A stretch of 64,000 nucleotides of DNA from Candidatus Kaiserbacteria bacterium (GTDB taxonomy: Bacteria; Patescibacteriota; Minisyncoccia; Phycocordibacterales; UBA2100): assembly GCA_016186765.1 (NCBI GenBank), contig JACPLD010000003.1:6121-70120 (forward strand). Direction: 5' to 3'. This document shows, piece by piece, positions 8,923 through 38,280 of the stretch. A program made the translations under genes and the position numbers. How positions within the stretch are numbered: position 1 is the stretch's first letter; the number at the start of each line of letters is the position of its first letter. The notes beneath the pieces are model-generated. The model saw nothing but the letters and a program-made list of their open reading frames with translations, searched no databases and was not told the DNA's origin.

Positions 8923-8939
8923 TCGCGGTCTCAAGATTG

Positions 8940-9715
8940 TTTTTCCACACCCTTGTGTGTCAAGGTGACACCTTGACGCAAGGTTGCCGTATTATCCTGA
9001 GAATGAACAGAGCCCCTTTCGGAAGCGGCGAATGGTATCACTGCTTTGCACGAGGCATCGACAAACGGAGGACATTCGTTGACCGTTCCGACTACAATCG
9101 TTTTTTAGGGCTCCTCTACTTGTGCAACAATACCTCCACTATCCACAGAAGTAATCTCCGTTCCCCGACACTCTTTAACTTACTTTCGATGAATCGCGGG
9201 AAACCCCTCGTCGGAATCGGAGCTTTCTGTCTGATGCCGAACCACTTTCATCTTTTACTGAAAGAAATTACAGATGGCGGTATTTCAGCCTTTATGCAGA
9301 AGCTTGGTACTTCATATGCAATGTACTTCAACATGAGGCGCAACCGTGCCGGAAATCTGTTCACAAAGCCGTTTCGGTCACGGCACATCAGTGATGACCG
9401 ATACCTTCAGCAAGTTCTGCAGTACATTCACTGCAATCCAGCAGAGCTCTTCGAGCCCGGATGGAAAGATGGACGAGTTAAAGACTTATACATACTTCAG
9501 AAGAAACTGCTCATATATCCATATTCAAGTTTTGGCGCTTTCACTGACACAAGCAATGTTCTGGGAAAAATCCTTGACTCGTCGATCTTCGAAATTGAAA
9601 CTCAATTCTCGCCCGGCAAAATGCTCAAGGAAGCTCTCGAATACTATCGCGATGTCAAGGTGACACCTTGACGCACCCTCCTTGACGCACCCTTGACGCA
9701 CGGAGAATCATCTCC
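8940..9715 (+). mobile_element. IS200/IS605-family-like minimal element: tnpA (Y1 HUH transposase) flanked by identical palindromic hairpins in direct orientation
   Basis: The palindrome TCAAGGTGACACCTTGA occurs at 8960-8976 and again at 9655-9671. CCTTGACGCA is repeated three times at 9666-9700. Confidence 0.6.
9003..9671 (+). CDS. tnpA: HUH Y1 transposase, IS200-like / RAYT-like (TnpA)
   Basis: HuH motif NHFHLLL and conserved YIHCNP Tyr region; paralogous to the ORF at 37581-38243. Probable start MNRAPFG at 9003. Confidence 0.65.
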   Translation: MNRAPFGSGEWYHCFARGIDKRRTFVDRSDYNRFLGLLYLCNNTSTIHRSNLRSPTLFNLLSMNRGKPLVGIGAFCLMPNHFHLLLKEITDGGISAFMQKLGTSYAMYFNMRRNRAGNLFTKPFRSRHISDDRYLQQVLQYIHCNPAELFEPGWKDGRVKDLYILQKKLLIYPYSSFGAFTDTSNVLGKILDSSIFEIETQFSPGKMLKEALEYYRDVKVTP

Positions 9716-21744: not shown

Positions 21745-22551
21745 TCAAATCACGAACCATCCACGTTCACTCCCAACCTTGGAGAGCTCATTGGTACGAT
21801 CTACGACCACTTTGATCTCCGCTGTTTCAAGCATCGGCAGGTCGCTCATACTGTCGCCTACAGCAAGAAGAGGCGCATGCTCGGAGTCGATGTACTTCTG
21901 CACGCATGCCACCTTACCTTCGAACATGGATAACGGCTCTTCAAGCACCGACGTAAACACGCCGCTTTGCACAACGCTCCTCATGCCGATAAGACCTGCC
22001 TCGATCCCGAAGTGTTGCATCGCCGCGCGCACCGCAGGCTCCGGCGTCGCGCTTATCACCCACACAGAAACTCCCTTTGACTTCAAGAAGTCTGCGATTG
22101 CGAGTACTTCACGGCGCAGTGCAAGGCCGCGCTCAATGTGGAATCCATAGAGCACTTTGGAGCCGATCCGCCTTCCCTCCTCCGTTATAGCAGCGAGTGT
22201 GAGAGCTTCCACTTCTCCGGGAGTAAAGCCAGAGAACATCCTCGCGATGAGTACGTATGCCGCCTTGAGCCGCCCGTTTTTGAGCAACGAGTAGTAGGTG
22301 CTAAACACGCGCTCATGGTAGTCGGAAGAAGGATTTTCTTTGCCAAGAAGCGCTCGATCGCGCAAAAGCTCATGGCCGCAGAGGTACGCAAACGTAGCTT
22401 CACAGACATCGTTCACGATGCACGTGTTGTCGAAGTCGAAAACTGCAAAAGGGGTCTCCCCGGTCTCTCGCAGTCTCCGCGCAACTGCATCTCGAATCCG
22501 GGCAAGATCATCCATGGGGGAACTCCCATGGAAACACGACCCACGCGCCAA
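21745..22551 (-). CDS. HAD-superfamily hydrolase (HAD-IB / phosphoserine phosphatase-like)
   Basis: Motif I FDFDNT and later GDS.SD-type motifs. Confidence 0.55.
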   Translation of the reverse strand: MARGSCFHGSSPMDDLARIRDAVARRLRETGETPFAVFDFDNTCIVNDVCEATFAYLCGHELLRDRALLGKENPSSDYHERVFSTYYSLLKNGRLKAAYVLIARMFSGFTPGEVEALTLAAITEEGRRIGSKVLYGFHIERGLALRREVLAIADFLKSKGVSVWVISATPEPAVRAAMQHFGIEAGLIGMRSVVQSGVFTSVLEEPLSMFEGKVACVQKYIDSEHAPLLAVGDSMSDLPMLETAEIKVVVDRTNELSKVGSERGWFVI

Positions 22552-22966
22552 CTTCGAGCACGTAGAAGTCGGGCGTAAAGACGCGGTCCTTTTTCTTGAG
22601 GACGAGGGTCGCCGCTCTCACCTCGGCAGCACCGTAGTCGCGCTTGAGAATATGCGAAACATGCCGGAGTGTGTGACCCCCATCTACGATTTCGTCCACG
22701 AGGAGAACCTTCTTTCCGCGCAGGTCAACCTTCGGGAGTGCCGTCACTCGGAGCTTCCCTTTGCGCCTTCTCCCATACGAGCGAACCGAGATCGTCGCGA
22801 CATCTTTCGTGCCTAACTCGCCGGCAAGGAGCGCGAGCGGCACGAGCCCGCCAACGGTAACGCCAACAATGCAGTCCGGGCGAAACTTTCGCGCGCGTAC
22901 CTTGCGCGCCAAAAGCTTCGCGAGCTCTTGGACTCTTCTCCACGAAACTCTGGTTGTTTTTTGCAT
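22508..22966 (-). CDS. gpt: xanthine-guanine phosphoribosyltransferase-like PRTase
   Basis: PRPP motif VLLVDEIVDGGHTL and Gpt-like GGLVPLALLAGELG; about 153 aa from MQKTTRV. The ORF-track extension to 23026 would overlap tRNA-Ser. Confidence 0.6.
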   Translation of the reverse strand: MQKTTRVSWRRVQELAKLLARKVRARKFRPDCIVGVTVGGLVPLALLAGELGTKDVATISVRSYGRRRKGKLRVTALPKVDLRGKKVLLVDEIVDGGHTLRHVSHILKRDYGAAEVRAATLVLKKKDRVFTPDFYVLEVGAWVVFPWEFPHG

Positions 22967-22986
22967 GTTACGGTTTTTGGACACTG

Positions 22987-23071
22987 CGGAGGAGGTGAGA
23001 TTCGAACTCACGATGCCTTTCGGCATGGCGGTTTTCGAAACCGCTGGAATAAACCACTATCCGACTCCTCC
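22987..23071 (-). tRNA. tRNA-Ser (anticodon CGA), class II with a long variable arm
   Basis: Hand-folded: acceptor GGAGGAG/CTCCTCC, anticodon stem GCGGT/ACCGC, loop TTCGAAA, variable hairpin ATGCC-GAAA-GGCAT, T-arm GTGAG-TTCGAAT-CTCAC. No encoded CCA. Confidence 0.8.
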
Positions 23072-23188
23072 GTTCGGACAAGCATCGCTTGTCCGCGACT
23101 TCGATAAAGGGAAGCCGCAAACGATCAAACCAGACGACAAAATATCACATTTTATTACTGAGACATAATGCGTTATCATTGCGACGCG

Positions 23189-23260
23189 GCCCTATCGTCT
23201 AACGGTTAGGACGGCTTTCTTTCAAGAAGCAAATCGGGGTTCGACTCCCCGTAGGGTCAT
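23189..23260 (+). tRNA. tRNA-Glu (anticodon TTC)
   Basis: Close to E. coli tRNA-Glu: acceptor GGCCCTA/TAGGGTC, D-arm TCGTCTAACGGTTAGGAC, anticodon loop CTTTCAA, T-loop GGGGTTCGACTCCCC. Confidence 0.85.
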
Positions 23261-23278
23261 CGCATCAAACGCAATCTT

Positions 23279-23530
23279 ATGACCAAAAAAGGGGTCGCCG
23301 GTGGTGTGGTACATAAAGTGCCGGAGGATTTGCGAAAGGCCCTAATTCAGACGCCTGCGGCGCGAGCAGCGTGGGAAGATATTACGCCACTCGCGCGCAA
23401 TGAGTGGATCTGCTGGGTCATCTCCGCTAAGAAAGCGCGGACGCGAAGCCACCGGATCGAGAGGACGCGTACGGAGCTTATAGAAGGAACGCGCAGGCCT
23501 TGTTGTTGGGCCGGCTGTATTCATCGTTGA
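23279..23530 (+). CDS. YdeI/OmpD-associated (OmdA) family small protein
   Basis: Pattern AARAAWEDITPLARNEWICWVISAKKARTRSHRIERTRTELIEG is typical of the family. Confidence 0.5.
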   Translation: MTKKGVAGGVVHKVPEDLRKALIQTPAARAAWEDITPLARNEWICWVISAKKARTRSHRIERTRTELIEGTRRPCCWAGCIHR

Positions 23531-23539
23531 AATAGAATT

Positions 23540-23755
23540 GTGGCGGTCCAAACCCCAAGTAATAAAATCAATATGGAAACTAAAGATAGCAAAATGGATG
23601 ATGAGAATGGCAACTGCAAACAATGTGGGCATCCCTTTGACCCGCATCAAATCATTGCAAATCCCAAAGATTTAGCAGCGGGTGGGATAATGAAGTGCCC
23701 TGTAGATGGGTGTCCTTGTTTCAATACGATCAGTTTTGATTTTAAGAAAGAATGA
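23540..23755 (+). CDS. small Cys-rich (zinc-ribbon-like) protein in the low-GC islet
   Basis: C..C...(18)...C....C.C arrangement (NCKQCGHP ... MKCPVDGCPCF). Local GC is about 40% against about 58% elsewhere in the window. Confidence 0.35.
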   Translation: MAVQTPSNKINMETKDSKMDDENGNCKQCGHPFDPHQIIANPKDLAAGGIMKCPVDGCPCFNTISFDFKKE

Positions 23756-23864
23756 TTTTAGTTCCAACATCGTTCCAGACATCCAGCCAGTTTGAGAAAG
23801 CTCGAGGGGGCGCTGCAGGCAATTTGTTGCTATACAAATTTAATGGATACGATACTATAAAAGT

Positions 23865-24143
23865 ATGAGAAATCCATTTAGGAAAAAGAGTCCAGAGGAA
23901 GAATTTGTAGATTCTTTTCTGAAGGGCATGACAGAGACTATGGGTGATAATCAAGAAGCAAAAGATATGTATGCTCTGATTAAATCGCGTCGAGATTCTG
24001 GCGACTATATAGCTGTCCAAGAGCTTGCGAATAATTTTGTTCAAGCTGCAGGAGCATTGCATCGGGCGGAAAAAGACAGAAAACTTATGGAGGAATTAGG
24101 TTTAGATGAAGATGCTAACATTAAAGAAGAAGGCTCTCGATAG
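23865..24143 (+). CDS. small acidic helical hypothetical protein in the low-GC islet
   Basis: ORF with AT-rich codon usage distinct from its neighbours; no recognisable motif. Confidence 0.3.
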   Translation: MRNPFRKKSPEEEFVDSFLKGMTETMGDNQEAKDMYALIKSRRDSGDYIAVQELANNFVQAAGALHRAEKDRKLMEELGLDEDANIKEEGSR

Positions 24144-24477
24144 ACTTGGAAACACGATTAGTCATAGAAGACTGATTACGTGGGCTCTCGTCGTAGCGCT
24201 CATACTACTGATACCCTTGGTTTTGACGCTCCTTAACCCGAATGCGCGAGTATACGGAGGTGAAGGAGGGGATTGGGATTGGGCACCTGGCGGCTTCGTT
24301 GTCATGGGCCTACTCCTCTTCTGCACGGGTCTCGCCATTGACTTCGCGGTGAGAAAGATTACTCACCCGATATTTCGAATGTTCGCCGTCGCCGCTATCG
24401 TACTCACGCTTCTCGCCATTTGGGTGGAGCTCGCTGTCGACGGGGTGAGCCAGATGATAACGGCACTTGTTGGTTGA
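24106..24477 (+). CDS. hypothetical membrane protein (3 TM)
   Basis: Hydrophobic helices; GC returns to the window average here. Confidence 0.3.
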   Translation: MKMLTLKKKALDRLGNTISHRRLITWALVVALILLIPLVLTLLNPNARVYGGEGGDWDWAPGGFVVMGLLLFCTGLAIDFAVRKITHPIFRMFAVAAIVLTLLAIWVELAVDGVSQMITALVG

Positions 24478-24554
24478 ATTCTTGTCGTATCGGGTTTGCT
24501 CTTCCGCTGCGCCGCCATTTCAAATTCCTAAGGCAGTTTGGGTCATAGCGTATA

Positions 24555-24866
24555 ATGCTCTGCGTGACTCTCAATCCGCTCTACAATGCCCTTCTCGCAG
24601 CCGGCTACATTGTGCTCGTCGCGACTGTCATGAATCTCGCCCACCAGGTGGACGTTCCTGAAAACGGTATTCTCATTCCCATCACGGTGCTCTCCCTCTT
24701 CGTTCTGTCGGCCGCAGTAATGGCGTATCTCTTTGTCTTTCAGCCAGCCCAACTCTACCTTGATGGCAAGAAAACAGAGGCGGTGAATTTGTTTTTGAAA
24801 ACCGTCGGCTTCTTTGCAGGAATAACCGTCATCCTATTAGGAATACTTTTTTGGACTGCCGTCTGA
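24555..24866 (+). CDS. hypothetical membrane protein (3 TM)
   Basis: Three hydrophobic helices in about 103 aa. Confidence 0.3.
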   Translation: MLCVTLNPLYNALLAAGYIVLVATVMNLAHQVDVPENGILIPITVLSLFVLSAAVMAYLFVFQPAQLYLDGKKTEAVNLFLKTVGFFAGITVILLGILFWTAV

Positions 24867-24869
24867 AGT

Positions 24870-25445
24870 TTATTGTGCGGAGAAGACGTCGCCGGCGACA
24901 CTGCCGTCACCACCCGTGACCAGGATGTCTTTGTGGAGGTCGAACTCCCCATCGCCATCGTCAACGTAGATCAAAACTTGATAGCGCTCTCCCGCTGTCG
25001 TTGCCCGAAGAAGCGGGACCTCAATGTCAGCGTGCGTACCCGGCTCGAAGCGCCCAGCGCCGAGCGTGCGGCCATCAGCGTCGCGCACCGCGATCCAGCC
25101 CATCTGTGCAAGCGTAGCGGATTTCACCTTCACACTCATGCCAGCCAGCTGGTCGGTCACGTCAACCGATTCTCTGCTTCCCGCAATCGTCGGCGTCTCC
25201 TCCGAAAGCGGCCCGAATACCGATGTCGGATTTACCGGGGAACTTTCGCTCGTTCTGCCCGCGACCTCTTCTTCAACATCCTCGGTCTCAGAGAGAGACA
25301 CTGAGCCATCGTACGCATTGCGAGCAATGAGCCACCAGCCACCGATGAAGATGAGCGCGAGGATAATGGCCGCGATGATGCGATTCGAGGTGTCGTTTAG
25401 GTCGATACCGGGCTTTTGAGGCATAGCTATCTCGTACAGCCCCAC
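24870..25445 (-). CDS. membrane-anchored hypothetical protein with an acidic extracellular region
   Basis: N-terminal TM (IIAAIILALIFIGGWWLI), an acidic linker, and a C-terminal beta-rich domain. Confidence 0.3.
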   Translation of the reverse strand: MGLYEIAMPQKPGIDLNDTSNRIIAAIILALIFIGGWWLIARNAYDGSVSLSETEDVEEEVAGRTSESSPVNPTSVFGPLSEETPTIAGSRESVDVTDQLAGMSVKVKSATLAQMGWIAVRDADGRTLGAGRFEPGTHADIEVPLLRATTAGERYQVLIYVDDGDGEFDLHKDILVTGGDGSVAGDVFSAQ

Positions 25446-37529: not shown

Positions 37530-38280
37530 TTTACTCCTACATATTAGTGGTTTCGTAAACCACTAATATATACTGGCGATATGGAACTCTACCACGTCCT
37601 AAATAGAGGTGTAGAAAAAAGACTAATTTTTCTAGACGAAGCAGATCGGGCTCGCTTTGTCCACGACCTTTGGGAATTCAACGATACAGAAGATGCGAAA
37701 AATGTATGGTACCGAGTCTCCCAAAATAAGGGTTTACGAAACCACTATATTGAAAAGGAAAGGATTGTAGATCTTCATGGGTGGTGTCTGATGGGGAATC
37801 ACTATCACTTGCTTATATCAGAAAAGCATGACGGAGGGCTTACGAAATTCATTCGTCGGCTCAACGTCGGATACGCCAACTACTTTAACGAACGCTATAG
37901 GCGCCAGGGTACTCTTTTCCAGGGTCGCACGAGGAAAGTTCTAATCAGCACCGACGCGCACTTCTTGCACATACTGAACTACATCCATTGCAACCCGCTC
38001 GATTTCTTAAAAAACGCAGCAGATTGGAGAGAGCACAAGATTGGTAGCGCGGCTTATGCGCTGCGCTATCTCTCTAACTATAGATGGAGCAGCTACCTCG
38101 ATTACTCGGGAGTCCGGAATTTCCCTTCGGTATTGACTACAGAGCTGTTTTCCGATGTTTTCAAGGACTACAAAAAGGAAATTTCTTCTTTTCTGCTTAC
38201 AAACGAAACAAAAAGGCTGAACGGTTATCAACTCGAATATTAGTGGTTTACGAAACCATTAATATCTGTCGGAAAAAGAG
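37530..38280 (+). mobile_element. second IS200/IS605-family-like minimal element (tnpA flanked by palindromic hairpins ATATTAGTGGTTT-NNN-AAACCACTAATAT)
   Basis: Perfect 13-bp-stem palindrome at 37541-37569 and a 1-mismatch copy at 38237-38265 (contains the tnpA stop codon). A partial third copy (GGTTTACGAAACCACTATAT) lies inside the ORF at 37731-37750. Confidence 0.6.
37581..38243 (+). CDS. tnpA: HUH Y1 transposase, IS200-like / RAYT-like (TnpA), divergent paralog of the ORF at 9003-9671
   Basis: HuH motif NHYHLLI and YIHCNP; shares LNRG...R.iF.D..DR..F with the first copy. Confidence 0.65.
   Translation: MELYHVLNRGVEKRLIFLDEADRARFVHDLWEFNDTEDAKNVWYRVSQNKGLRNHYIEKERIVDLHGWCLMGNHYHLLISEKHDGGLTKFIRRLNVGYANYFNERYRRQGTLFQGRTRKVLISTDAHFLHILNYIHCNPLDFLKNAADWREHKIGSAAYALRYLSNYRWSSYLDYSGVRNFPSVLTTELFSDVFKDYKKEISSFLLTNETKRLNGYQLEY

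What the first reader, a model, noticed from the sequence alone, without database searches (positions are those of the whole stretch)
22987..24180. Low-GC islet of small Cys-rich/acidic ORFs inserted next to tRNA-Ser(CGA) and tRNA-Glu(UUC)
Immediately after the divergently oriented tRNA-Ser and tRNA-Glu lies a YdeI/OmdA-like small protein. A roughly 650-bp stretch at about 40% GC follows (window average about 58%). It encodes a zinc-ribbon-like 71-aa protein (C..C...C....C.C) and a 92-aa acidic helical protein, then two small membrane proteins. tRNA-adjacent position, compositional shift and tiny ORFs of unknown function are typical of recently acquired DNA. Candidates include a phage or integrative remnant, or a toxin/antitoxin or anti-defence pair. 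No integrase is visible.
Basis: partly seen in the sequence, partly recalled or inferred. Interest (0 to 1): 0.55.

Follow-up and report, generated by a model that had tools for sequence, protein, structure and literature searches.

The report
Two foreign small genes, low-GC patch
A 0.6-kb patch of AT-rich DNA in a Candidatus Kaiserbacteria genome carries two unrelated, conserved small genes of unknown function that were acquired horizontally between two native genes; this is ordinary small-scale gene gain, not a tRNA-targeted island, a prophage remnant or a toxin-antitoxin pair.

Summary

It encodes a Cys-rich zinc-ribbon-like protein, most likely 60 aa starting at ATG 23573 rather than 71 aa. 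It also encodes a 92-aa acidic protein predicted as a three-helix bundle. Third-position GC is 0.38 and 0.29, against 0.63 +/- 0.05 for 49 reference ORFs.

Both are real genes. Each has metagenomic homologues with few amino-acid changes and saturated synonymous changes.

A syntenic relative (L033/L034) has OmdA and the membrane-protein gene in the same order. Between them lies an unrelated, ORF-poor 656 nt of about 50% GC, with neither small gene. This supports recent acquisition.

The tRNA link is not supported. There is no integrase and no repeat of either tRNA 3' end. A native OmdA gene separates the tRNAs from the patch, and the relative shows no tRNA beside OmdA.

The two genes never co-occur elsewhere, so they are not a pair. 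Neither family was found in phage or plasmid collections.

Homologues of the 92-aa gene sit in eight different neighbourhoods, and DNA similarity stops at the ORF ends. Function remains unknown. The two membrane proteins are native in composition.

The parts
22986..23071 (-). tRNA-Ser(CGA); native neighbour, not an attachment site
   Evidence: ARAGORN and Rfam tRNA at 52 bits. Its 3' 20-mer occurs only once in the window.
23188..23259 (+). tRNA-Glu(UUC); native neighbour, not an attachment site
   Evidence: ARAGORN and Rfam at 58 bits. Its 3' 20-mer occurs only once in the window.
23279..23530 (+). OmdA/YdeI-type small protein (83 aa); native left flank of the patch
   Evidence: Pfam PF13376 at E 7.6e-19. 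GC 0.575, GC3 0.583. It is 69% aa / 73% nt identical to the OmdA of relative L033/L034, where it also lies upstream of the membrane-protein gene.
23542..23572 (.). Left junction: similarity to the relative fades here, just before the ATG of the zinc-ribbon gene
   Evidence: blastn similarity to L033 ends at 23541. A pairwise alignment shows residual matches (AGAATTGTGGCGGTCCAAACCC) to about 23556.
23573..23755 (+). Foreign gene 1: 60-aa Cys/His-rich zinc-ribbon-like protein (the 71-aa reading starts at GTG 23540)
   Evidence: - GC 0.41, GC3 0.377.
- NCBI HYW60_02655 is annotated as 60 aa.
- Homologues are 55-66% identical with invariant C15 C18 H20 H25 C42 C47 C49.
- pN is 0.26-0.32 with saturated synonymous sites.
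- A profile search finds 160 clusters, mostly 50-100 aa stand-alone proteins.
- No curated family reaches its threshold.
23756..23864 (.). 109-nt AT-rich spacer between the two foreign genes (contains an unsupported 38-aa ORF)
   Evidence: GC 0.413. No similarity to any fetched locus. Folding is no better than shuffles, z -0.86.
23865..24143 (+). Foreign gene 2: 92-aa acidic protein predicted as a three-helix bundle
   Evidence: - GC 0.394, GC3 0.29.
- 14 metagenomic homologues are 56-90% identical.
- pN is 0.12-0.13 against pS 0.73-0.80.
- AlphaFold pLDDT 84, helices 10-25, 30-44 and 48-77.
- Homologues lie in 8 different gene contexts, and DNA similarity is confined to the ORF.
24144..24167 (.). 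Right junction: similarity to the relative resumes inside the 5' coding region of the membrane-protein gene
   Evidence: blastn similarity to L033 (88% nt) starts at 24168. The pairwise alignment shows matches from about 24148-24154.
24106..24477 (+). Native 3-TM membrane protein (123 aa) whose start codon now lies inside the 3' end of foreign gene 2
   Evidence: - GC3 0.573.
- 87% aa identical to P0022 of L033; 57 homologues in all.
- Its N-terminal tail is 12-17 residues longer than in all 11 aligned relatives.
- ATG 24106/24112 overlaps the 92-aa ORF, which ends at 24143.
24555..24866 (+). Second small membrane protein (103 aa); host-like composition, not part of the patch
   Evidence: GC3 0.606. 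Three hydrophobic segments. No homologue in any fetched locus.
24870..25445 (-). DUF7282 protein; native right-hand neighbour
   Evidence: Pfam PF23951 at E 1.8e-12. A DUF7282 gene is also adjacent to the membrane-protein gene in the more distant relatives L038-L041.

Best explanation
The low-GC stretch is about 575-600 bp of horizontally acquired DNA (roughly 23573-24147). It replaced the native spacer between an OmdA gene and a small membrane-protein gene in this Candidatus Kaiserbacteria lineage.

**Cargo (shown).** The patch carries two unrelated, independently distributed small genes:
- a 60-aa zinc-ribbon-like protein;
- a 92-aa acidic protein predicted as a three-helix bundle.

Both families are conserved under purifying selection. 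They occur sporadically in other uncultured genomes in non-syntenic, gene-turnover-prone neighbourhoods. For the 92-aa family these are all low-GC.

**Other points shown.**
- Foreign composition at synonymous sites.
- Absence from a syntenic relative.
- Junctions that hug the first ATG and the last stop codon.
- The downstream native gene now starts from an ATG inside the foreign DNA.
- No integrase, no att repeat, no phage or plasmid relatives.

**Inferred.**
- Entry was integrase-independent: illegitimate or short-homology recombination of DNA taken up from a low-GC donor, at a local hot spot of gene turnover.
- The tRNAs are bystanders.
- The two genes act independently rather than as a pair.
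- Each product is most likely a small binding module rather than an enzyme.
- The zinc ribbon would bind nucleic acid or protein.
- The helical acidic protein would be an adaptor or inhibitor. It may have a conflict-related role (immunity or anti-defence type), given the neighbours of its homologues.
For: **Composition**
- 39.7% GC against 54.9% for the window, the window minimum.
- GC3 0.29 and 0.38 against 0.626 +/- 0.05.

**Real genes**
- 14 homologues of the 92-aa protein and 4 of the zinc-ribbon protein.
- pN far below saturated pS.
- Invariant Cys/His ligands.
- A confident helical model.

**Absent from the syntenic relative**
- L033/L034 share OmdA (73% nt) and the membrane-protein gene (88% nt).
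- The 656 nt between them are unrelated, about 50% GC, ORF-poor, and have no tblastn match to either protein.

**Donor-like composition elsewhere**
- Homologues of the 92-aa gene sit in 33-44% GC contigs with matching gene GC.

**Independent mobility**
- 8 contexts for the 92-aa gene and 2 for the zinc-ribbon gene, never together.
- In all 28 pairwise comparisons, DNA similarity starts 0-26 nt before the ATG and ends no later than 34 nt past the stop.

**No integrative machinery**
- No att-type repeat.
- Housekeeping neighbours only.
- No hairpin ends.

**Junction and start capture**
-.

**Genuine junctions**
- Identical sequence in independent assemblies.

**Neighbours of homologues**
- GIY-YIG nuclease, PIN, RhuM, PD-Lambda-2_C and cII-like defence hits, an RHS toxin with an Imm26-like gene, and an IS200 transposase.
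Against: - Only one syntenic relative was recovered. Loss or replacement in that relative, rather than gain here, is not formally excluded; the composition argues against it.
- No donor with near-identical DNA was found. The best is 85% nt (L047), and synonymous sites against most homologues are saturated, so 'recent' rests on the lack of amelioration alone.
- ORF-tight similarity can partly reflect fast decay of non-coding flanks rather than ORF-precise transfer.
- The functional inference is weak. No family, fold or PDB match is informative.
- The contexts of the homologues are heterogeneous, and only a few contain recognisable conflict genes.
- The zinc-ribbon homologue in a 64% GC genome has native composition and an ordinary neighbourhood.
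Confidence: 0.72

Rival explanations
1. tRNA-targeted integrative element or prophage remnant. A site-specific recombinase would have inserted an element at tRNA-Ser or tRNA-Glu, and most of it later decayed, leaving two small cargo genes.
For: - Two tRNA genes lie within 0.3-0.6 kb.
- The composition is foreign.
- Homologues of the 92-aa gene also lie 63-371 nt downstream of a tRNA in two other contexts, L021 and L028.
Against: - No repeat of either tRNA 3' end in 64 kb, and no significant direct repeats flanking the patch.
- No integrase or phage gene within 5 kb.
- OmdA between the tRNA and the patch is native and syntenic with the membrane-protein gene in a relative where no tRNA was found beside OmdA.
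- No PHROG hits, and no relatives in IMG/VR, INPHARED or PLSDB.
- Five of the eight contexts of the 92-aa family have no tRNA on the contig.
Confidence: 0.06
2. A two-gene functional module, such as a toxin-antitoxin or defence/anti-defence pair, in which the zinc-ribbon protein and the acidic helical protein work together.
For: - Two adjacent same-strand small genes, one acidic and one with a possible nucleic-acid-binding zinc ribbon.
- Both are foreign.
Against: - They never co-occur: no zinc-ribbon homologue in any of the 8 contexts of the 92-aa family, and the reverse also holds (tblastn; gene tables).
- A 109-nt spacer separates them, with no overlap.
- No PADLOC, Pfam or NCBIfam TA or defence family.
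- GC3 differs between the two genes (0.38 against 0.29).
Confidence: 0.07
3. Native genes whose low GC reflects their amino-acid composition or expression level, with the relative having lost them.
For: - Both proteins are rich in Lys, Asn, Asp and Glu.
- Only one syntenic relative is available.
Against: - GC3, which is largely independent of amino-acid content, lies 5-7 sd below the reference ORFs and below the minimum of all 49.
- The non-coding spacer is equally AT-rich.
- Homologues sit in low-GC genomes in unrelated contexts.
- The relative has 656 nt of unrelated DNA there, not a deletion scar.
Confidence: 0.08
4. Homing-endonuclease-assisted spread. The small genes would be passengers co-converted next to free-standing nuclease genes near tRNA genes, as with T4 SegB in the T4 tRNA cluster, and the nuclease gene has since been lost here.
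For: - In L021-L026 the homologue of the 92-aa gene overlaps by 4 nt the end of an 84-aa GIY-YIG gene that follows tRNA-Ser(gct).
- The sister contig L033/L034 has a GIY-YIG gene 120 nt downstream of the membrane-protein gene, followed by another low-GC gene.
- SegB promotes inheritance of the T4 tRNA region and its flanks (PMC2330249, abstract as listed).
Against: - No GIY-YIG homologue in the 64-kb window, and no homologue there of the L028 HTH protein once suspected to be a LAGLIDADG enzyme.
- These 81-84-aa GIY-YIG proteins lack a DNA-binding domain, and their homing activity is untested.
- Only 1 of the 8 contexts pairs the gene with GIY-YIG.
- The L028 neighbours gave only helix-turn-helix matches and are not confirmed endonucleases.
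Confidence: 0.07

Closest known systems
Phage 'morons' and small chromosomal genomic islets (single-gene or few-gene insertions of deviant composition between two conserved genes)
   Same: - An ORF-sized insertion between two genes that are adjacent in a relative.
- A sharp GC drop.
- No mobility genes of its own.
- Cargo of unknown, presumably accessory function.
   Different: - It lies in a bacterial (CPR) chromosome among housekeeping genes, not in a prophage.
- No own promoter or terminator could be identified; consensus hits were no more than in shuffles.
- It replaced a spacer of similar length rather than being a pure insertion.
tRNA-linked genomic islands and integrative elements (tyrosine-recombinase islands with an attL/attR repeat of the tRNA 3' end)
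   Same: - Proximity to tRNA genes.
- Deviant composition.
- Absence from a relative.
   Different: - No integrase.
- No att repeat.
- Not contiguous with the tRNA.
- Only 0.6 kb long.
Zinc-ribbon small proteins (Pfam Zn_ribbon_8 PF09723; NCBIfam RGCVC family NF038206)
   Same: - Two Cys knuckles (CxxC and C-x4-C-x-C).
- Size of 50-100 aa.
- Weak profile matches: E 0.028 to Zn_ribbon_8 and E 0.0026 to RGCVC.
   Different: - Scores of 15-18 bits are far below the curated cutoffs of 34-35 bits.
- It has its own signature, DDENGxCKQCGHPFDPH ... GGxxxCPVxxCxC, with two invariant His.
- No significant structural neighbour.
Type II toxin-antitoxin pairs and small anti-defence proteins
   Same: - Small size.
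- An acidic helical protein.
- Residence of homologues in variable, conflict-gene-rich neighbourhoods.
   Different: - No conserved partner.
- No family match.
- No experimental or contextual link to a specific defence system.

Membership tests
tRNA-targeting integrative island / prophage remnant | Site-specific recombinase (integrase) gene at one end | tested here: not met
   ORFs of at least 110 aa across 15-33 kb were listed. Ten of them within about 5 kb of the patch were scanned with Pfam: seven gave housekeeping domains (PyrF, PRTase, PGM-type phosphatase, HAD, Sua5, TsaD, class I tRNA synthetase), three gave no hit, and none was an integrase. The ORFs inside the patch have no recombinase hit.
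tRNA-targeting integrative island / prophage remnant | Direct repeat of the tRNA 3' end (attL/attR) bounding the element | tested here: not met
   The 20-mers of both tRNA 3' ends occur once each in 64 kb, even with 3 mismatches allowed. The repeat finder gave only chance-level matches of 10-13 nt.
tRNA-targeting integrative island / prophage remnant | Foreign DNA contiguous with the tRNA gene | tested here: not met
   The native OmdA gene (23279-23530; host GC; syntenic with the membrane-protein gene in L033/L034) lies between tRNA-Glu and the patch.
tRNA-targeting integrative island / prophage remnant | Phage or mobile-element homologues among the cargo | tested here: not met
   PHROGs best E 0.012-0.013. 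IMG/VR scans found no relative. tblastn against INPHARED phages and PLSDB plasmids gave no match.
Horizontally acquired genomic islet (generic) | Composition deviating from the host at synonymous sites | tested here: met
   GC3 0.29 and 0.377 against 0.626 +/- 0.05, minimum 0.507.
Horizontally acquired genomic islet (generic) | Absent from the same site in a related genome with conserved flanks | tested here: met
   L033/L034 have OmdA (73% nt) and the membrane-protein gene (88% nt) flanking 656 nt of unrelated DNA. There is no tblastn hit to either protein. Only one relative was available.
Type II toxin-antitoxin pair | Two adjacent genes co-conserved across genomes | tested here: not met
   No co-occurrence in the 8 contexts of the 92-aa family or the 2 contexts of the zinc-ribbon family.
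Type II toxin-antitoxin pair | Match to a known toxin or antitoxin family | tested here: not met
   No match in Pfam, NCBIfam or PADLOC.
OmdA/YdeI (PF13376), for the flanking 83-aa protein | Profile match above Pfam's gathering score | tested here: met
   67.9 bits against a cutoff of 25.6, E 7.6e-19, covering profile positions 3-58 of 60.
Zinc ribbon fold, for the 60-aa protein | Two conserved Cys knuckles able to bind one Zn | tested here: met
   C15, C18, C42, C47 and C49 (plus H20 and H25) are invariant in 5 sequences and recur in distant family members.
Zinc ribbon fold, for the 60-aa protein | Significant sequence or structure match to a described zinc-ribbon family | tested here: inconclusive
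   Zn_ribbon_8 gave 14.9 bits (cutoff 34.4) and RGCVC 17.7 bits (cutoff 35). The model has pLDDT 71. The best Foldseek PDB hits are zinc ribbons (RNA polymerase III subunit C11, ELOF1) but at E above 2.
IS200/IS605-type element with passenger genes | Y1 transposase adjacent and subterminal hairpins at both ends | tested here: not met
   The nearest Y1_Tnp genes are 14 kb away, at 8937-9671 and 37581-38243. The junction sequences fold no better than shuffles, z from -0.3 to +0.3.

The most novel reading that the evidence does not exclude
The 92-aa family, and perhaps the zinc-ribbon family, may be ORF-sized 'nomad' genes of CPR bacteria that move between genomes as units bounded almost exactly by their start and stop codons. 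An unrecognised mechanism might drive this, for example co-conversion next to the small GIY-YIG nuclease genes that recur beside tRNA genes. Their products might be a new class of small conflict proteins of the immunity or anti-defence type.
Probability: 0.1. Interest if true: 0.6.

Novelty: new member of a known kind. Interest (0 to 1): 0.3.

Why it matters
- It gives a clean, small example of recent horizontal gene gain in a reduced CPR (Kaiserbacteria) genome. It includes a side effect on the neighbouring gene, whose start codon now lies in the foreign DNA.
- It flags two conserved small-protein families that no curated database describes. One of them (the 92-aa family) turns up in eight unrelated neighbourhoods with ORF-tight similarity.
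- If these families prove to be conflict genes or selfish genes, the locus would be a handle on gene flow among uncultured ultra-small bacteria.
- As it stands, it is an ordinary accessory islet of unknown function.

Tried and rejected
**Family and model searches**
- Pfam, NCBIfam, PHROGs and PADLOC on all five small proteins. Only OmdA was significant.
- A Rfam scan of 22500-25000 found only the two tRNAs.

**Structure**
- Structure prediction plus Foldseek (PDB, BFVD) and a PDB profile search gave no informative neighbour.
- The 92-aa profile hits designed helical repeat proteins (E 7e-6). I read this as idealised-helix composition, not homology.

**Attachment sites, ends and signals**
- The att-site search was negative.
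- Hairpin or IS ends at the junctions were not found.
- The promoter and terminator scan gave no more hits than shuffles.

**Collection scans**
- The genome-contig scan with the neighbouring PRTase was meant to find syntenic Kaiserbacteria. Synteny came instead from homologues of the membrane protein.
- The metagenome-contig scan for the 92-aa family returned only a locus already in hand.
- Cluster look-ups gave no organism names.

**Ideas dropped**
- I suspected by eye that the L028 neighbours were LAGLIDADG endonucleases. Pfam and PHROGs gave only helix-turn-helix matches, so I dropped the claim.
- I tested whether the GC-richer core of the spacer, or the whole patch, retains similarity to the relative's 656-nt gap. 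It does not exceed the shuffled controls.
Full report
**What is there**

ARAGORN and Rfam place tRNA-Ser(cga) at 22986-23071 (-) and tRNA-Glu(ttc) at 23188-23259 (+). The next ORF, 23279-23530 (+), is a clear OmdA/YdeI-type protein (PF13376, E 7.6e-19). Then the composition drops. Region 23531-24160 is 39.7% GC against 54.9% for the 64-kb window. For a 575-nt window this is the minimum of the whole sequence; the lowest value elsewhere is 0.438.

The stretch holds three things:
- a Cys-rich ORF, 71 aa from GTG 23540 or 60 aa from ATG 23573, ending at 23755;
- a 109-nt spacer;
- a 92-aa ORF at 23865-24143.

Two small membrane proteins follow, at 24106-24477 and 24555-24866. After them comes a DUF7282 gene on the other strand.

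**Is the composition shift more than amino-acid content?**

Yes. Third-position GC is 0.377 for the Cys-rich ORF and 0.29 for the 92-aa ORF. For 49 long reference ORFs of the window it is 0.626 +/- 0.05, with a minimum of 0.507. OmdA (0.583), the two membrane proteins (0.573 and 0.606) and DUF7282 (0.672) are host-like. The foreign segment is therefore narrower than the finding's description. It contains the two soluble small genes and their spacer, not the membrane proteins.

**Are the ORFs genes?**

Yes, both.
- The 92-aa protein is annotated in NCBI as a hypothetical protein of a Candidatus Kaiserbacteria bacterium (HYW60_02660). It has 14 metagenomic homologues at 56-90% identity.
- The Cys-rich protein is annotated as 60 aa (HYW60_02655). 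It has four homologues at 55-66% identity.
- Against homologues with DNA in hand, non-synonymous differences are 0.12-0.13 (92-aa) and 0.26-0.32 (Cys-rich), while synonymous sites are saturated. That indicates strong purifying selection.
- C15, C18, H20, H25, C42, C47 and C49 of the 60-aa form are invariant.
- A profile search of 1.84 billion representative proteins finds 160 clusters at E <= 0.001. Nearly all are 50-100-aa stand-alone proteins. A few carry the domain at the C-terminus of 150-214-aa proteins that have no Pfam domain.

The junctions are real. Independent Logan contigs from three different runs carry the identical sequence. L001 spans both junctions and L002 the right one.

**Comparison with a syntenic relative**

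Homologues of the 123-aa membrane protein led to contigs L033/L034 from groundwater metagenomes. There the OmdA gene matches window 23274-23541 (73% nt, 69% aa). The membrane-protein gene matches window 24168-24487 (88% nt, 87% aa). The two genes are in the same order and orientation.

The 656 nt between them are about 50% GC and have no convincing ORF. They show no similarity to the window patch at the DNA or protein level. ARAGORN finds no tRNA next to OmdA in the relative.

More distant relatives (L038-L041) keep the adjacency of the membrane-protein and DUF7282 genes but have other genes upstream. In L033 the membrane gene is followed by a GIY-YIG gene and another low-GC gene. The neighbourhood is thus a local hot spot of gene turnover.

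**Boundaries**

- Left: similarity to the relative fades between 23542 and about 23556-23572, just before ATG 23573. This, together with the N-termini of the homologues, favours the 60-aa reading.
- Right: similarity resumes at about 24148-24168, a few bases after the TAG of the 92-aa ORF at 24141-24143.
- The patch is therefore bounded almost exactly by the first start codon and the last stop codon.
- One consequence: the native membrane-protein gene lost the equivalent of its relative's start. It now begins at ATG 24106 or 24112, inside the 3' end of the 92-aa ORF. Its N-terminal tail is 12-17 residues longer than in any of 11 aligned relatives.

**Where the two genes occur elsewhere**

Homologues of the 92-aa gene were recovered in seven further contexts:
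- L021-L026: 40% GC. The order is tRNA-Ser(gct), an 84-aa GIY-YIG gene, then the homologue overlapping it by 4 nt, next to a Na/Ca exchanger gene.
- L028: 63 nt after tRNA-Trp, among genes for helix-turn-helix proteins.
- L027: beside PD-Lambda-2_C and cII-like defence-database hits.
- L044-L046: 33-37% GC, arrays of small genes including PIN, RhuM and DUF4325.
- L047: 36% GC, after a DUF2806 gene.

Gene GC (about 39-42% where computed, and 36% for the whole L047 contig) fits those contigs and not the window. The best DNA match is 85% (L047). In all 28 pairs of the eight contexts, similarity starts 0-26 nt upstream of the ATG and ends no later than 34 nt past the stop.

Zinc-ribbon homologues lie in two contexts:
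- after a 2755-aa RHS/SpvB toxin gene and an Imm26-like gene, and before an IS200 transposase gene (L029; gene GC3 0.28 in a 47% GC contig);
- as a native-looking gene (GC3 0.64) between DUF179 and superoxide dismutase genes in a 61-64% GC genome (L030/L031).

The two families never share a contig. They are independent genes, not a pair.

- tRNA integration: neither tRNA 3' end is repeated in the window. No significant direct repeat flanks the patch. No integrase or phage gene lies nearby. OmdA, which is native, separates the tRNA from the patch.
- Phage origin: no PHROG match. No relatives in IMG/VR, INPHARED phages or PLSDB plasmids.
- Toxin-antitoxin or defence pair: no PADLOC, Pfam or NCBIfam match, and no co-occurrence.
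- IS200/IS605 cargo: the window has two IS200-like Y1 transposase genes, but they are 14 kb away. The junctions have no hairpins.

**What the proteins may do**

The 92-aa protein is predicted with good confidence (pLDDT 84) as three helices (10-25, 30-44, 48-77) followed by an acidic, poorly ordered tail. Its pI is 4.9. The 60-aa protein is modelled at pLDDT 71 as short beta hairpins consistent with a zinc ribbon.

Foldseek against PDB and BFVD and profile searches of PDB sequences give nothing significant. The exception is a compositional match of the helical protein to designed helical repeats.

My best inference, marked as inference, is that both are small binding modules rather than enzymes. 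The company kept by their homologues makes a conflict-related accessory role more likely than a housekeeping one. That company includes nucleases, PIN, RhuM, defence-system components, a toxin-immunity locus and a transposase. This is guilt by association from heterogeneous contexts and is weak.

**How it most likely arose**

Shown:
- foreign composition;
- absence from the syntenic relative;
- ORF-tight junctions;
- no recombinase or att site.

Inferred:
- DNA from a low-GC donor, probably another CPR bacterium, was taken up and recombined into the OmdA-to-membrane-gene spacer by illegitimate or short-homology recombination. It replaced a similar length of non-coding DNA.
- The two genes arrived either together from an unsampled donor island or in two events at the same hot spot.
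- A nuclease-assisted route (small GIY-YIG genes next to tRNAs, as in L021 and next to the same site in L033) is an appealing parallel to T4 SegB (PMC2330249, abstract as listed). It has little direct support here, because no such gene exists in the window.

**Verdict**

This is a genuine, recently acquired two-gene islet. Its mechanistic suggestions (tRNA-linked integration, phage remnant, gene pair) are not supported.

The kind of feature is well known. The two protein families are undescribed but of unknown function. The ORF-precise distribution of the 92-aa family and the start-codon capture of the neighbouring gene are the only mildly unusual aspects. Interest is modest.

Noticed in passing
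window 22508-23026 (-): For the phosphoribosyltransferase next to tRNA-Ser, the best relatives among GTDB species representatives are archaeal (Bathyarchaeia and Methanocellales, 35-43% aa), and no Kaiserbacteria relative was recovered. This could reflect inter-domain transfer or sparse sampling. The longest ORF overlaps tRNA-Ser by 41 nt, so the true start is probably the ATG at 22966.
   Followed up: no
window 8937-9671 (+) and 37581-38243 (+): The next-lowest-GC patches of the window each hold an IS200-like Y1 transposase (RAYT-like) gene. GC3 is 0.52 and 0.51, the lowest among the reference ORFs. Pfam Y1_Tnp matched the second gene; tblastn linked both to the L029 transposase.
   Followed up: partly
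L033 2491-3116 (sister contig of the window): Directly downstream of the orthologous membrane-protein gene, the relative carries an 81-aa GIY-YIG gene. A low-GC (39%) 127-aa gene overlaps it by 4 nt. This is a second small low-GC islet in the same neighbourhood of another genome.
   Followed up: partly
window 24106-24167: The start codon and first 15-20 codons of the native 3-TM membrane protein are encoded by the AT-rich foreign DNA and overlap the 3' end of the 92-aa gene. The N-terminal tail is longer than in all 11 aligned relatives.
   Followed up: yes
window 23342-23650 (-), seen as L001 135-440: The gene caller used for the Logan contigs called an antisense 101-aa ORF in place of the OmdA gene. 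The same happened with a 172-aa antisense ORF in L034. OmdA on the + strand is the supported reading.
   Followed up: yes
L021 5176-5916; L028 1877-2289: Homologues of the 92-aa gene lie 371 nt and 63 nt downstream of tRNA genes (tRNA-Ser(gct), tRNA-Trp), so 3 of the 8 contexts are tRNA-proximal. In L021 the gene overlaps a GIY-YIG gene by 4 nt. The sample is too small to call this enrichment.
   Followed up: partly
L029 145-9966: A zinc-ribbon homologue sits at the end of a polymorphic-toxin locus (a 2755-aa SpvB/RHS protein and an Imm26-like 157-aa protein) and just before an IS200 Y1 transposase gene.
   Followed up: partly
L045 832-1278 and L046 687-1169: In two contexts a homologous membrane-anchored protein (N-terminus MNWLKENWFK, 30% identity) immediately precedes the homologue of the 92-aa gene. 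This is the only recurrent neighbour seen.
   Followed up: no
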